Source of the DNA: Escherichia phage IME08
Length of the DNA stretch: 64,000 bases
Sequence record: NC_014260.1
Strand: one strand, 5' to 3'
In this document: positions 4,549 through 8,121 of the stretch, piece after piece
Layout of the letters: the number at the start of each line of letters is the position of its first letter
Position numbering within the stretch: position 1 is the stretch's first letter
Position numbers and translations under genes: made by a program
Notes under the pieces: generated by a model
Database searches by the model: none
Seen by the model: only the letters and a program-made list of their open reading frames with translations
What the model was told of the DNA's origin: nothing

Positions 4549-5166
4549 TTATTTACGGGTCTTTTCGAACTGGGCCGCGTCACCAGCCAGACGACGAGCT
4601 TGACGAAGTTTGTTGTCGATTTCTTCGCGCATAGGCTGGGTATACTTAAGGCCTTCAACCGTCAGATAGAGGCGATAAAGGTCTGGGGTGTCTAGGTTGT
4701 TAATGTGCTGTCCGTTACGAAGAGTATTGAATTCACGAACAAGGTGTTTAGTTTCGGATTCGATTTCAGAAACCAAAGAAGCCAGTTGATTATATTTTTT
4801 AACTATAGTGCTGGTGTCAAACTTGATTTTAGGTTTAGGAGCTTCTTTTACCGGTTCGGCTTTAGGCGTCGGTTTCGGCGCTGCAACTTTGGCCTGGGCT
4901 GCAGGTTTAGCAACAGGAGCTTTAGCTGGTTTAGCAGGCTTAGTAGCGCCGCCAGCTACGATATCTTTAAAAGCTTTAGAAGCTTTGTAATATTCTTTCT
5001 GGTTACTAGTATCAAAACCATACATATCATAAACGTTTTTAAAGAATTCGGTGGTGGTTTTAGTCCCAGAAATTTTATCATAAGCCGCTTGCCACATATC
5101 TTTAGTCATGCGGACGCCGGCTTCGGTCAGAACGCTTTCGTTCAAAAATTCATTGTAAGTTTTCAT
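4549..5166 (-). CDS. internal head protein, IPIII-like, with capsid targeting sequence [10 protein letters not shown]
   Basis: N-terminus matches T4 CTS MKTYQEFIAE; basic Ala/Lys/Pro-rich core; minus-strand TATAAATA upstream. Confidence 0.7.
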   Translation of the reverse strand: MKTYNEFLNESVLTEAGVRMTKDMWQAAYDKISGTKTTTEFFKNVYDMYGFDTSNQKEYYKASKAFKDIVAGGATKPAKPAKAPVAKPAAQAKVAAPKPTPKAEPVKEAPKPKIKFDTSTIVKKYNQLASLVSEIESETKHLVREFNTLRNGQHINNLDTPDLYRLYLTVEGLKYTQPMREEIDNKLRQARRLAGDAAQFEKTRK

Positions 5167-5194
5167 TATTGTTTCCTGTGTTAATTAACTTATC

Positions 5195-5202
5195 TATTTA
5201 TA
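5195..5202 (-). promoter_or_regulatory. late promoter TATAAATA
   Basis: Exact octamer about 29 nt upstream of IPIII-like start. Confidence 0.6.
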
Positions 5203-5203
5203 C

Positions 5204-5234
5204 AAAAAAGGCCCAACCTTTCGGAAGGGCCTTT
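5204..5234 (-). terminator. rho-independent terminator after tRNA cluster
   Basis: ggccc...gggcc stem flanked by A6 and T3; same 25-nt sequence at 51611. Confidence 0.7.
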
Positions 5235-5400
5235 AACCTAGGGTAACCTTGTCGGGGTTCCACCTGCTAGGCAAGTGTTCGGTGCGCCGTTTCGGCTGTG
5301 AGATAAGGGACTTTAAGAGGAACTCATGTACGCCTTAAAGTCGGGTCTTATTCAGGGAACTTCAGTCCGACGACTTACCGGTAGCGACCCGGTTTCTTGT
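5232..5400 (-). ncRNA. candidate structured stable RNA next to tRNA cluster
   Basis: No ORF; nested stems (cgggtc...gacccg; ccgg...ccgg); sits between tRNAs and the strong terminator, where T4 has small stable RNAs. Confidence 0.3.
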
Positions 5401-5401
5401 T

Positions 5402-5477
5402 TGGCCGAGACAGTAGGGATCGAACCTACGACCCAGGACTTAGAAGGTCCTTGCTCTTCCTTCTGAGCTATGCCTCG
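5402..5477 (-). tRNA. tRNA-Arg (anticodon UCU)
   Basis: Hand-folded cloverleaf: 7-bp acceptor, 4-bp D stem, 5-bp anticodon stem, loop CTTCTAA, T loop TTCGATC, encoded CCA. Confidence 0.8.
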
Positions 5478-5481
5478 TATT

Positions 5482-5556
5482 TGGCGGACATGCATGGATT
5501 CGAACCATGGACCAATTGATTAACAGTCAACTGCTCTACCACTGAGCTACACATCC
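5482..5556 (-). tRNA. tRNA-Asn (anticodon GUU)
   Basis: Hand-folded cloverleaf: acceptor GGATGTG/CATGTCC, loop CTGTTAA, T loop TTCGAAT, encoded CCA. Confidence 0.8.
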
Positions 5557-5560
5557 AAAT

Positions 5561-5634
5561 TGGTGGCCCTGGGTGGAATCGAACCACCATCCAGCGATTA
5601 TGAGTCGCTCGCTTGACCGTCCAGCTACAGGGCC
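5561..5634 (-). tRNA. tRNA-Met (anticodon CAU; could be Ile2 if lysidinylated)
   Basis: Hand-folded cloverleaf: acceptor GGCCCTG/CAGGGCC, anticodon loop CTCATAA, T loop TTCGATT, encoded CCA. Confidence 0.75.
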
Positions 5635-5719
5635 TTAATTCTATTATGAAAGGCTCTTTGAGGGAAGAACCTTTGGTAATAGAGGGTATTAATGATAGAG
5701 TAATAATATCACATAATTC

Positions 5720-6004
5720 TTAAAGCATATTAATGTAATCAAGTTTAATAGAAGCAATCTTCAAAGGATTTTTAAAGATGTCGTATTCGACCAATCCATT
5801 TTCAGTTGCGGTATAAAAAGTAAAGTTAACAGAATTATAACGATGGCTGTTAACTTTGAGCTTAACATCGCTTGAACTACGTCCTATATTAACCTGTTGA
5901 ACATCAAGAACAGCATCTTTGCCATAATTGCGAATCAACAACTCAGCTGCAACCTGATCGGATTTATAGCCATTCTCTGGATTAGTAACCTTAACGTATA
6001 GCAT
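5720..6004 (-). CDS. hypothetical early protein
   Basis: ORF track. Confidence 0.5.
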   Translation of the reverse strand: MLYVKVTNPENGYKSDQVAAELLIRNYGKDAVLDVQQVNIGRSSSDVKLKVNSHRYNSVNFTFYTATENGLVEYDIFKNPLKIASIKLDYINML

Positions 6005-6659: not shown

Positions 6660-6932
6660 TTATTTTAAATAAATTGCATACTTTTTATAACCAGCCGTTT
6701 CGTGACGCAGCCCTTTTTCATTAGCAAAACGTTCAATATTGTTAATTTGATTCTGGTCGAGTTCTGAAGTATCAAATACAAAAAAGTTTCGCTTATTGCC
6801 TAAAGTTACATGATTAGTCAAATCGATGTTATAGAGATGATTTATATTATCAATCATAGTCTTAACAGATTTGTTAATTTTTACTTCTTCATTAAGAATA
6901 GATTCAGCGATAAATTCTTGATATGTTTTCAT
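6660..6932 (-). CDS. internal protein candidate with CTS MKTYQEFIAE
   Basis: N-terminal 10 aa identical to T4 internal-protein CTS; position matches T4 ipI locus next to 57B. Confidence 0.65.
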   Translation of the reverse strand: MKTYQEFIAESILNEEVKINKSVKTMIDNINHLYNIDLTNHVTLGNKRNFFVFDTSELDQNQINNIERFANEKGLRHETAGYKKYAIYLK

Positions 6933-6934
6933 TT

Positions 6935-7159
6935 TTATTCAGCGCCAGCGGCTTTCAAAAGTTTTTTAAGATTAGCGGTGCCTTGAGCAGAAAATGTGAC
7001 CTTGCCGTCTTTTTCGCCGATGCTCCCGGTCAATTTAGCGAGCTTATCACTAGGGACTTTTTTAAAATCAGCCAATGAACCGTCAAAGGTTTTTGTAACA
7101 ACCGGCAGTTGGTCTTCGTGTTTTTTAGCTTCGGTAATAAATTCTTGATAAGTTTTCAT
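6935..7159 (-). CDS. internal protein candidate with CTS MKTYQEFITE
   Basis: CTS-like N-terminus; early-type promoter upstream. Confidence 0.65.
   Translation of the reverse strand: MKTYQEFITEAKKHEDQLPVVTKTFDGSLADFKKVPSDKLAKLTGSIGEKDGKVTFSAQGTANLKKLLKAAGAE

Positions 7160-7237: not shown

Positions 7238-8121
<884 letters not shown>

What the first reader, a model, noticed from the sequence alone, without database searches (positions are those of the whole stretch)
5204..5640. Three-tRNA cluster plus a structured non-coding region
Hand-folded tRNAs Arg(UCU), Asn(GUU) and Met(CAU) all have encoded CCA and canonical stems. The 170 nt between them and the terminator (5232..5400) have no ORF and form nested stems, where T4 carries small stable RNAs. 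The tRNA set differs from the T4 eight-tRNA set as I recall it.
Basis: partly seen in the sequence, partly recalled or inferred. Interest (0 to 1): 0.4.

Follow-up and report, generated by a model that had tools for sequence, protein, structure and literature searches.

The report
Phage tRNA operon with rnaD RNA
This is the end of a T4-type phage tRNA operon: three real tRNA genes followed by a homologue of T4's "species 2" small stable RNA (rnaD), an RNA known for 50 years whose function is still unknown, so the locus is largely ordinary.

Summary
All features lie on the minus strand of a Dhakavirus (JS98-like T4-type) genome, 99.7% identical to Escherichia phage dhaeg.

- **tRNAs.** ARAGORN and Rfam confirm three tRNAs with encoded CCA: CAU (5634-5561), Asn-GUU (5556-5482) and Arg-UCU (5477-5402).
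- **The "Met".** The CAU tRNA is almost certainly tRNA-Ile2, the AUA decoder. Its best match in the E. coli records listed from top to bottom of the ranking is annotated tRNA-Ile.
- **The structured stretch.** It is a homologue of T4 rnaD (species 2 RNA), about 5400-5281. The core is 92-95% identical to T4, while the neighbouring tRNA-Arg is only 62% identical.
- **What follows.** T4's second small RNA, rnaC, is absent. A near-invariant 3' spacer with hairpins follows, then the operon terminator.
- **Structure.** Comparison of 29-36 homologues supports four helices (P1-P4): 15 of 25 pairs show compensatory changes. P2 and two junctions are invariant, and P4 is hypervariable.
- **Distribution.** Shorter relatives sit inside tRNA clusters of Karamvirus, Moonvirus, Certrevirus and other Vequintavirinae phages.
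- **Databases and literature.** No Rfam family matches, and the literature I could read calls the function unknown.

Best guess, inferred only: a stable RNA released by tRNA processing that binds a conserved protein. Interest is modest.

The parts
5703..5727 (-). Putative MotA-type middle promoter of the tRNA operon: TGCTTTA at 5727-5721, a 12-nt spacer, then -10 TATTAT at 5708-5703.
   Evidence: Read from the sequence and compared with the T4 middle-promoter consensus, which I know from memory. PMC2330249 says the T4 tRNA cluster is driven by a middle promoter just upstream. This is inference; it was not tested.
5561..5634 (-). tRNA with anticodon CAU and encoded CCA. Most likely tRNA-Ile2 (C34 converted to lysidine, decodes AUA) rather than tRNA-Met.
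   Evidence: ARAGORN; Rfam 62.6 bits. In the rows listed from the top to the bottom of 5,460 matching E. coli records, the best match is always annotated tRNA-Ile, at 76-80.5% identity where it spans the full length. The acceptor stem is GGCCCUG with C4-G69 and C5-G68. There is no initiator-type anticodon stem (alignment). It aligns closely (89% mean column identity in a three-sequence alignment) with the RB33 CAU tRNA, which sits at the T4 tRNA-Ile position.
5482..5556 (-). tRNA-Asn (GUU), encoded CCA.
   Evidence: ARAGORN; Rfam 72.6 bits. It is annotated in dhaeg. T4 lacks it. [quoted passage not shown]
5402..5477 (-). tRNA-Arg (UCU), encoded CCA; decodes AGA.
   Evidence: ARAGORN; Rfam 62.4 bits. 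It is only 62% identical to T4 tRNA-Arg.
5281..5400 (-). Homologue of T4 rnaD (species 2 small stable RNA), about 120 nt. The ends are set by homology to the annotated T4 and RB33 RNAs.
   Evidence: Alignments to RB33 and T4. The 5' core is 92% and the 3' core 95% identical to T4, while P4 is 54%. The covariance model built here scores 126.7 bits at 5398-5278 and finds a single copy in the window. No Rfam family matches, even at E<=10.
5377..5393 (-). rnaD helix P1: ACCGG / CCGGU closing the 7-nt loop GUCGCUA.
   Evidence: Four of its 5 pairs show compensatory changes in the 36-sequence alignment: AU/GC/GU, CG/UA, CG/AU/GC/UG and GC/AU/GU. The loop is invariant in T-even-type phages but differs in Karamvirus and Moonvirus.
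5368..5374 (-). rnaD helix P2, 5' strand GUCGUCG. It pairs with 5289-5282 (CGGCG.AC, with C5284 bulged).
   Evidence: RNAalifold. 98.8% of cells are paired. The sequence is invariant across all genera apart from a few single-side and unpaired departures and one compensatory GC->CG change in Cronobacter phage CR9.
5282..5297 (-). 3' strands of P3 (5297-5294, AGCC), the GAAA segment (5293-5290) and P2 (5289-5282).
   Evidence: P3 pair 38-108 is UA 23, AU 7, GC 1; pair 40-107 is GC 31, AU 4. In the window itself 5361.5294 is an A.C mismatch, where dhaeg has A-U. The T-even-type tandem G.A/A.G (5363.5292 and 5362.5293) is replaced by two U-A pairs in Karamvirus, so the helix probably runs on through the 'loop'.
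5299..5354 (-). rnaD helix P4: a long, irregular, hypervariable hairpin. The window carries 'type A', which contains GAGUUCCUC. The invariant junction UCCCUG / CACA lies at its base.
   Evidence: At least four unrelated sequence types occur on the same conserved core. Seven of the 9 basal pairs show compensatory changes. The single-sequence fold recovers P1 and P4.
5233..5280 (-). Conserved 3' external spacer. It holds hairpin H1 (CACUUGC-CUA-GCAGGUG, 5277-5261), the invariant GAACCCCGACAAGGUU (5260-5245) and a small variable hairpin (5244-5236).
   Evidence: 92% identical to T4. It is present in 25 distinct versions, and always lies between the variable slot and the terminator. H1 shows one compensatory G-C to A-U change in L034. 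Folds are (z = -2.5).
5204..5232 (-). Intrinsic terminator of the tRNA operon: hairpin 5231-5210 and U6 tract 5209-5204.
   Evidence: Folds. It is homologous to the terminator after rnaC in T4 and RB33. It is annotated 'terminator' in some relatives (H47 and H49).

Best explanation
The interval is the distal end of a T4-type tRNA operon on the minus strand of a Dhakavirus genome. The order is: a probable MotA-type middle promoter, tRNA-Ile2(CAU), tRNA-Asn(GUU), tRNA-Arg(UCU), a ~120-nt homologue of T4 rnaD ('species 2 RNA'), a conserved ~48-nt 3' spacer with hairpins, and an intrinsic terminator.

The tRNAs supply decoders for codons that the phage uses much more than E. coli does. AGA and AUA are read by the host's scarcest tRNAs, and Asn codons are moderately enriched.

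rnaD starts 1-2 nt after the CCA of tRNA-Arg, so its 5' end is made by the host nucleases that mature that tRNA. Its 3' end is trimmed back to the base of helix P2.

The released RNA is a rod of helices P2-P3-P4, with hairpin P1 on its 5' side.

Inferred, about 0.35 on its own: rnaD acts in trans as a stable protein-binding RNA, either a decoy or an RNP component. The sequence-invariant P2 helix and the invariant junctions (GAC bulge; UCCCUG/CACA) would be the recognition surface. The exchangeable P4 hairpin would be a spacer or a specificity module. The partner is probably a factor conserved across Enterobacteriaceae, possibly linked to tRNA metabolism or translation, because the element travels together with tRNA genes between phage families.
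For: Identity of the genome: 99.7% identical to phages dhaeg and dhabil.

tRNAs. The tRNA-Ile assignment rests.

Codon usage in 54 window ORFs: AGA 8.1, AUA 12.3 and AAU+AAC 55.7 per 1000. From memory, E. coli uses about 2, 4-5 and 39.

rnaD homology and synteny. The core is far better conserved than the flanking tRNA (92-95% against 62% relative to T4).

Structure:
- On a MAFFT alignment of 29 distinct sequences, 96.4% of cells pair and 9 pairs carry double changes. None of 500 shuffles reaches this, and slid controls give 32-51%.
- On 36 sequences including distant genera, 15 of 25 pairs carry double changes and the covariation score is 0.278 against 0.116 for shuffles.
- P2 is nearly invariant while P1, P3 and P4 covary. 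This is the pattern expected for sequence-specific recognition.

Association with tRNAs: in Tequatro-, Dhaka-, Karam- and Moonvirus and in E. coli Vequintavirinae phages the element lies within a few nt of the 3' end of a tRNA (Arg, Ile2, Tyr or Asn). In Certrevirus CR9 it lies 65 nt after tRNA-Lys.

Literature: rnaC and rnaD are stable RNAs of unknown function made from the T4 tRNA transcript (PMC3014915; PMC2330249). They accumulate late (PMC9697503). A convergent SNP in the rnaD region arose in all lines of a T4-like phage evolved on a semi-permissive host (PMC12685909).
Against: No experiment here or in the accessible literature shows a partner or a phenotype. No expression data exist for this phage.

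The P1 loop and the P2/P3 junction are invariant only within T-even-type phages. They differ in Karamvirus and Moonvirus, so part of the 'recognition surface' is lineage-specific.

P2 has only one compensatory change, so its pairing rests mostly on invariance.

The window's own copy carries an A.C mismatch in P3, and its single-sequence fold is only modestly better than shuffles (z = -1.7).

The tight linkage to tRNA 3' ends fits a purely cis-acting role equally well.

The codon-supply role for tRNA-Asn is weak, because Asn codons are not rare in the host.
Confidence: 0.75

Rival explanations
1. rnaD is a cis-acting processing or stability module of the tRNA transcript. In this view it is a structured 3' cap that directs or orders cleavage by RNase E, RNase P or exonucleases and protects the upstream tRNA. 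The stable RNA would be only a by-product.
For: The element almost always lies within a few nt of a tRNA 3' end, in two phage families. It moves together with tRNA genes: A5-4 carries tRNA-Ile2+rnaD and tRNA-Tyr+rnaD modules. A conserved spacer and terminator follow it.
Against: A cap needs structure, not sequence, yet P2 and the junctions are sequence-invariant across genera. In RB69-type phages an ORF separates tRNA-Arg from rnaD, and CR9 has a 65-nt gap. In T4 the RNA accumulates as a stable late species (PMC9697503).
Confidence: 0.25
2. rnaD and/or the 3' spacer is a base-pairing riboregulator or sponge, like the tRNA-operon-derived 3'ETS-leuZ. Pairing would use the exposed C-rich motifs of rnaD (UCCCU in the P3/P4 junction; GAGUUCC(C)UC in P4) against G-rich Shine-Dalgarno-like sequences. 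Alternatively, the spacer-plus-terminator fragment, with its invariant GAACCCCGACAAGGUU between hairpins and its U-tail, would act as an Hfq-type sRNA.
For: UCCCUG is invariant in all 35 distinct sequences. The apical GAGUUCCCUCAAYGAUAAC is conserved in the short forms while their stems covary. The spacer has the hairpin / single-stranded / terminator-U-tail layout and is 92% identical to T4.
Against: Most invariant nucleotides of rnaD lie inside helices, and the CCC bulge is only 3 nt. No complementary target of 12 nt or more sits in an mRNA of the 64-kb window. The single 12-mer hit lies antisense to its gene. Host targets could not be searched at seed length; one search found nothing at 20 nt or more.
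Confidence: 0.15
3. rnaD is a molecular mimic that decoys a host defence nuclease. It would be either a tRNA anticodon-arm mimic (P1: 5-bp stem and 7-nt loop) or a CRISPR-repeat mimic (an RNA anti-CRISPR).
For: P1 has anticodon-arm dimensions, with U at the second loop position. The short forms contain GAGUUCCC, which equals the first 8 nt of the enterobacterial type I-E repeat (repeat sequence from memory; p about 0.02). A convergent host-adaptation SNP maps to the rnaD region (PMC12685909).
Against: The P1 loop is not conserved outside T-even-type phages; Karamvirus has an 8-nt loop of different sequence. Similarity of the window and T4 RNAs to the I-E and I-F repeats is at chance level (p 0.22-0.45), and the repeat hairpin is missing. 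The pairing that a type I-F-like reading needs conflicts with the covariation-supported P3.
Confidence: 0.05
4. The 170 nt are a non-functional spacer or a decaying remnant, and the apparent structure is chance.
For: The single-sequence fold of 5400-5281 is only z = -1.7. rnaC has been lost from this lineage. T4 tRNA-region deletions are viable on laboratory hosts (from memory).
Against: The core is 92-95% identical to T4, next to a tRNA at 62%. Fifteen of 25 pairs carry compensatory changes. The element is retained in about 730-810 phage records across several genera.
Confidence: 0.02

Closest known systems
Bacteriophage T4 rnaD (species 2 RNA; T4s002 in NC_000866)
   Same: Homologous sequence: 92% identity in the 5' core and 95% in the 3' core. 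Same position directly 3' of tRNA-Arg(UCU) in the tRNA operon, same length class (119-121 nt), and the same downstream spacer and terminator.
   Different: The central hairpin P4 has an unrelated sequence (54% identity; 'type A' against T4 'type B'). The window's copy has an A.C mismatch in P3. It is not followed by rnaC. The neighbouring tRNAs differ: Ile2-Asn-Arg here, against eight tRNAs plus segB in T4.
Bacteriophage T4 rnaC (species 1 RNA)
   Same: It is the second small stable RNA of the same operon in T4/RB-type phages. It occupies the slot between rnaD and the conserved 3' spacer.
   Different: It is absent here as a clean deletion. In other relatives the same slot is empty, or holds an ORF (L005, L035) or a tRNA (Providencia phage PSTCR6).
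E. coli tRNA-Ile2 (ileX/ileY, anticodon CAU modified to lysidine by TilS)
   Same: CAU anticodon, loop CUCAUAA, and C4-G69/C5-G68 in the acceptor stem. In every listed E. coli genome the best hit is annotated tRNA-Ile.
   Different: Only 77-80% identical. The modification and the charging were not tested.
tRNA-operon by-product RNAs of E. coli (3'ETS-leuZ sponge; RtT RNA of the tyrT operon)
   Same: They are small RNAs released from tRNA precursor transcripts by the tRNA-processing nucleases. The 3'ETS type includes the operon terminator, as the spacer here does.
   Different: There is no sequence or structural similarity; Rfam RtT and all other families are negative. rnaD is internal, highly structured and lacks a U-tail. 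No target is known.
GOLLD and ROOL RNAs (large structured RNAs of phages and prophages, often next to tRNA genes)
   Same: They are phage-borne structured non-coding RNAs of unknown function with a recurrent association with tRNA gene clusters (from memory).
   Different: They are five to eight times larger and unrelated in sequence and structure. No Rfam match was found.

Membership tests
tRNA (Rfam RF00005) | Cloverleaf scoring above the curated gathering score. | tested here: met
   72.6, 62.6 and 62.4 bits against a gathering score of 29. ARAGORN calls all three.
tRNA (Rfam RF00005) | 3' CCA end, encoded or added. | tested here: met
   CCA is encoded for all three, read from the sequence.
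tRNA-Ile2 (lysidine type) | CAU anticodon with a tRNA body of Ile2 rather than Met type (C4-G69, C5-G68; no initiator features). | tested here: met
   The acceptor stem is GGCCCUG/CAGGGCC (alignment). The best match in every listed row, from the top to the bottom of 5,460 E. coli records, is annotated tRNA-Ile.
tRNA-Ile2 (lysidine type) | C34 converted to lysidine by TilS, and charging with isoleucine. | not testable with these tools
   This needs mass spectrometry or nanopore tRNA sequencing, plus aminoacylation assays.
T4 rnaD / species 2 RNA | Sequence homology to the annotated T4 and RB33 rnaD. | tested here: met
   BLAST and alignments. Core identity is 92-95%.
T4 rnaD / species 2 RNA | Position in the tRNA operon directly 3' of tRNA-Arg(UCU) and upstream of the operon terminator. 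| tested here: met
   tRNA-Arg ends at 5402, rnaD starts at about 5400, and the terminator is at 5231-5204. T4 and RB33 have the same order.
T4 rnaD / species 2 RNA | A conserved secondary structure shared by family members. | tested here: met
   The four-helix model gives 96.4% and 95.6% of cells paired, with 9 and 15 pairs carrying compensatory changes. It beats all shuffles and slid controls. The window scores 126.7 bits with the family model.
T4 rnaD / species 2 RNA | Accumulates as a discrete stable RNA of about 120 nt during infection. | not testable with these tools
   This is known for T4 (PMC9697503). No data exist for this phage.
T4 rnaC / species 1 RNA | A 139-nt RNA with a tRNA-like T arm (CCGGGUUCGAAUCCCGG) between rnaD and the 3' spacer. 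| tested here: not met
   The alignment shows a clean gap. No match exists anywhere in the window.
Any curated Rfam family other than tRNA (including hammerhead and other ribozymes, RtT, YrlA, tmRNA) | A covariance-model match in 5232-5400. | tested here: not met
   Nothing reaches the gathering score. At E<=10, only tRNA-derived sub-threshold hits and two terminator-like fragments appear.
RNA anti-CRISPR (solitary CRISPR-repeat mimic) | Near-full-length similarity to a host CRISPR repeat, including its hairpin. | tested here: not met
   The local alignment to the I-E and I-F repeats is at chance level for the window and T4 (p 0.22-0.45). The repeat sequences were taken from memory.
3'ETS-type / Hfq-dependent sRNA (for the spacer 5280-5204) | Derived from the 3' end of a tRNA transcript and ending in an intrinsic terminator with a U-tail. 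| tested here: met
   Position and fold.
3'ETS-type / Hfq-dependent sRNA (for the spacer 5280-5204) | Hfq binding and a complementary RNA target. | tested here: inconclusive
   No target was found in the window. The host transcriptome could not be scanned at seed length. Hfq binding cannot be tested here.

The most novel reading that the evidence does not exclude
rnaD may be one member of a wider, uncurated family of ~100-120-nt structured RNAs. These are embedded in the tRNA clusters of enterobacterial phages from two families: Straboviridae (Tequatro-, Mosig-, Dhaka-, Karam- and Moonvirus) and Vequintavirinae including Certrevirus. In this reading the RNA acts in trans on a conserved host factor, for example to counter a defence or to retune translation or tRNA metabolism. 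Its invariant P2 and junction core would be the binding site, and its cassette-like, hypervariable P4 hairpin would be a host-specificity determinant.
Probability: 0.25. Interest if true: 0.65.

Novelty: new member of a known kind. Interest (0 to 1): 0.3.

Why it matters
The tRNA genes are routine, and near-identical phages already carry them in their annotation.

The structured stretch is the Dhakavirus version of T4 rnaD. This is one of the oldest orphan RNAs in molecular biology: it was sequenced in the 1970s and was still called "function unknown" in papers of 2010, 2022 and 2025.

The comparison made here gives three concrete handles.
- A covariation-supported four-helix model.
- A short list of nucleotides that never change.
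- The observation that the element travels with tRNA genes between phage families.

Together these make the old question directly testable by targeted mutants and pull-downs.

The finding also flags two annotation gaps. rnaD and its relatives have no Rfam family and are unannotated in most phage genomes. CAU tRNAs of this type are routinely mislabelled Met.

Tried and rejected
1. **Rfam.** Nothing but tRNAs appears in 5150-5720, at gathering score or at E<=10. The sub-threshold YrlA, Plastid-ycf2, tmRNA_permuted and similar hits all lie on the tRNAs.
2. **Hammerhead idea.** The motifs CUGAnG...GAAAC do not map onto the hammerhead core, because the would-be N7 and 11.1 positions covary as a Watson-Crick pair. 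Rfam is also negative.
3. **Kink-turn idea** for GACUGA/GAAA. The strand lengths do not fit a canonical K-turn. The tandem G.A is replaced by two U-A pairs in Karamvirus, so it lies within a continuous helix.
4. **Alternative local hairpin** GCWG-AAA-CGGC. Its third pair would be A.G in 17 of 29 sequences, whereas the long-range P3 pair holds in 26 of 29.
5. **CRISPR repeat mimicry.** Similarity is at chance level for the window and T4.
6. **tRNA-like 3' end** (ACCA). It is not conserved; several relatives have CACAG.
7. **Antisense targets in the window.** No complement of 13 nt or more exists. The single 12-mer lies antisense to its gene.
8. **Similarity to E. coli DNA.** None was found at the sensitivity available. 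Short matches I noticed to 16S (AAGUCGU) and 5S (AGGGAACU) rRNA are within chance expectation and were dropped.
9. **Plus-strand 'terminator'** at 5377-5393. This is just the antisense of P1.
10. **Collection scans.** IMG/VR and metagenome pattern scans added few new variants. Two jumbo-phage hits to the P4 loop motif (L047, L050) lie with no tRNA or rnaD nearby, probably in coding sequence, and are a chance match.
11. **My own error.** I first claimed that the CAU tRNA is a close orthologue of T4 tRNA-Ile. That was wrong: it is 60% identical to T4's, though it aligns closely with RB33's CAU tRNA.
Full report
**What the window is**

The 571 bases around the finding are 99.7% identical to Escherichia phages dhaeg and dhabil (genus Dhakavirus, JS98-like T4-type phages). 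Gene order matches T4: 57B, internal-protein genes, trna.2, tRNA cluster, e.8 and so on. The genes flanking the finding are on the minus strand, and so is everything described below.

**The tRNAs**

ARAGORN finds exactly three tRNAs in the 64 kb:
- anticodon CAU at 5634-5561;
- Asn(GUU) at 5556-5482;
- Arg(UCU) at 5477-5402.

Rfam's tRNA model scores them 62.6, 72.6 and 62.4 bits against a gathering score of 29. All three have an encoded CCA.

The label 'Met' is probably not.
- In every row listed, from the top to the bottom of 5,460 matching E. coli records, the best match of the CAU tRNA is annotated tRNA-Ile. Identity is 76-80.5% where the match spans the full length.
- The acceptor stem has C4-G69 and C5-G68. 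From memory, these are what TilS uses to tell tRNA-Ile2 from tRNA-Met.
- The anticodon stem has no initiator features.
- The tRNA aligns closely (89% mean column identity in a three-sequence alignment) with the CAU tRNA of RB33. That tRNA sits where T4 has its tRNA-Ile.
- The window's tRNA is only 60% identical to T4's own tRNA-Ile, so this is synteny rather than close orthology.

I conclude it is a lysidine-type tRNA-Ile2 that reads AUA.

Codon counts in 54 window ORFs fit a supply role. AGA is 8.1 per 1000, AUA is 12.3 and Asn codons are 55.7. From memory, E. coli uses roughly 2, 4-5 and 39.

T4 lacks tRNA-Asn. [quoted passage not shown] This explains why the set differs from T4's eight.

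**The structured stretch**

BLAST of 5200-5401 finds 743 phage records. In those that annotate the region, the features under the match are rnaC, rnaD and a terminator.

Alignment to RB33 and T4 shows three things.
- The window has a homologue of rnaD, T4's 'species 2 RNA' (119 nt in T4). It starts 1-2 nt after the CCA of tRNA-Arg and ends at about 5281.
- rnaC (species 1 RNA, 139 nt) is missing as a clean gap. It is absent from the whole window.
- The ~48 nt before the terminator are a separately conserved spacer.

Identity to T4, segment by segment:

| Segment | Identity to T4 |
|---|---|
| tRNA-Arg | 62% |
| rnaD 5' core | 92% |
| rnaD central hairpin (P4) | 54% |
| rnaD 3' core | 95% |
| 3' spacer | 92% |
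| terminator | 73% |

No Rfam family matches the stretch, even at E<=10. dhaeg leaves it unannotated.

**Structure of rnaD**

I collected 29 distinct sequences from phage records, IMG/VR and metagenomes. RNAalifold gives four helices.
- **P1:** ACCGG/CCGGU with a 7-nt loop.
- **P2:** a long-range helix, GUCGUCG with CGGCG.AC.
- **P3:** a 4-bp helix.
- **P4:** a long hairpin.

On the MAFFT alignment, 96.4% of cells pair and 9 of 25 pairs show changes on both sides. None of 500 shuffles reaches this, and sliding the partners gives 32-51% paired.

A covariance model built from this alignment finds one copy in the window, at 5398-5278 with 126.7 bits. It also finds a second, shorter copy in Escherichia phage A5-4, which belongs to the Vequintavirinae, not to the T4-like phages.

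Following that lead revealed ~101-nt relatives in several groups:
- other E. coli Vequintavirinae phages;
- Certrevirus CR9;
- Moonvirus KM16;
- many Karamvirus phages of Enterobacter, Klebsiella, Citrobacter and Cronobacter.

With these added (36 sequences, aligned to the model, which biases towards it), 15 of 25 pairs carry compensatory changes and the covariation score is 0.278 against 0.116.

Three details matter.
- P2 is sequence-invariant everywhere apart from a few single-side changes and one compensatory GC-to-CG change in CR9, while P1, P3 and P4 covary freely.
- The T-even-type 'internal loop' GACUGA/GAAA contains a tandem G.A/A.G. In Karamvirus this is replaced by two U-A pairs, so the helix continues and the true bulge is small.
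- UCCCUG/CACA at the base of P4 is invariant in all 35 distinct sequences.

P4 comes in at least four unrelated sequence types on the same core, and the types recombine with different cores. The short forms have a conserved apical loop, GAGUUCCCUCAAYGAUAAC. The window's type keeps GAGUUCCUC.

The window's own copy has an A.C mismatch in P3 (5361.5294), where dhaeg has A-U.

**Context rule**

In most of the lineages examined the element lies inside a tRNA cluster, usually 1-6 nt after a tRNA's 3' end.

| tRNA upstream | Phages |
|---|---|
| Arg | T-even-type phages and a Providencia phage |
| Ile2 and Tyr | A5-4 |
| Asn | Karamvirus |
| Lys (65-nt gap) | CR9 |

RB69-type phages are an exception: an ORF is inserted between the tRNA and rnaD.

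Downstream of rnaD there is a variable slot.
- It is empty in the window, JS98, VR5 and IME341.
- It holds rnaC in T4, RB69 and VR25.
- It holds an ORF in L005 and L035.
- It holds a tRNA in Providencia phage PSTCR6.

In the T-even-type phages the slot is followed by the near-invariant spacer ACACUUGCC..GCAGGUGGAACCCCGACAAGGU and the terminator. Hairpin H1 of the spacer shows one compensatory change.

**How it most likely works**

Shown:
- homology to rnaD;
- the helices;
- the invariant core;
- the linkage to tRNAs;
- the terminator.

Established by others for T4:
- the whole cluster is one transcript from a middle promoter, processed into tRNAs and the two stable RNAs (PMC2330249);
- the small RNAs accumulate late (PMC9697503);
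- their function is unknown (PMC3014915; PMC12685909).

The last paper also reports a convergent SNP in the rnaD region during adaptation to a semi-permissive host.

Inferred:
- the 5' end of rnaD is produced by 3' maturation of tRNA-Arg, and the 3' end by trimming to the base of P2;
- the RNA then acts in trans by binding a conserved protein through P2 and the junctions.

The reason for the second inference is the pattern of conservation. Where only structure is needed the sequence drifts and covaries, whereas P2 and the junctions do not change at all.

I put about 0.35 on that functional reading, 0.25 on a purely cis-acting processing role, and 0.15 on base-pairing regulation by rnaD's C-rich motifs or by the spacer acting as a 3'ETS-type sRNA. 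Mimicry of tRNA or of CRISPR repeats gets little weight.

**Comparison with known things**

The stretch is a member of the T4 rnaD family by sequence, synteny and structure. Expression was not testable. It is not rnaC and not any Rfam family.

Functionally, the nearest analogues are other by-products of tRNA operons (3'ETS-leuZ, RtT) and the tRNA-associated phage RNAs GOLLD and ROOL. None is related in sequence or structure.

**Verdict**

This is a correct and largely ordinary finding: a known kind of locus in a known phage lineage. The modest interest lies in the still-unsolved function of rnaD. The structure model, the invariant positions and the wider distribution assembled here would help a specialist design the decisive experiments.

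Noticed in passing
window 4549-5166, 6660-6932, 6935-7159, 7238-7447 (all minus strand): Four ORFs start with the same MKTY(N/Q)EF(L/I) peptide. From memory, this resembles the capsid-targeting sequence of T4 internal head proteins. dhaeg annotates one internal head protein in this region. The ORF inserted in the rnaD-spacer slot of L005 and L035 starts similarly (MLTYAEFLN...ESVLTEAG).
   Followed up: no
window 7444-7899 (minus strand): A 151-aa ORF with two H-x-T/S motifs (HSTICYS, HITLSY). dhaeg annotates it as the 57B gene product. From memory, T4 57B is the anti-CBASS phosphodiesterase Acb1.
   Followed up: no
L036 3311-3412 and 4205-4325 (Escherichia phage A5-4, OP744025, Vequintavirinae): This rV5-like phage carries two rnaD-family copies. 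One follows a T-even-type tRNA(CAU) and one follows tRNA-Tyr. This points to horizontal transfer of tRNA+rnaD modules between phage families.
   Followed up: partly
Slot between the rnaD 3' end and the conserved spacer (window about 5280; L005 3600-4100; L021 826-900): This one position is empty, or holds rnaC, an ORF or a tRNA, depending on the phage. It is flanked by nearly invariant sequence on both sides, which looks like a recombination cassette site.
   Followed up: partly
L043 582-720, L040 582-720 (Karamvirus): About 140 nt of unannotated sequence lie between the rnaD-like RNA and tRNA-Asp. The stretch begins with a GAAAG-flanked hairpin (CCGAAAGUUUACUUUCGG) and may hold a further non-coding RNA.
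   Followed up: no
window 5294 (minus-strand C): The only difference from phage dhaeg within the rnaD core falls on the covarying P3 pair. It turns A-U into A.C.
   Followed up: partly
window 5195-5202 (minus strand): A T4 late-promoter box, TATAAATA, follows the tRNA-operon terminator directly. It precedes the ORF that starts at 5166.
   Followed up: no
L023, L021, L024 (upstream of tRNA-Arg/rnaD): Homing-endonuclease genes are annotated immediately upstream of tRNA-Arg or rnaD in several relatives (IME341, PSTCR6, SYGD1) but not in the window. This fits the region being a homing hotspot.
   Followed up: no
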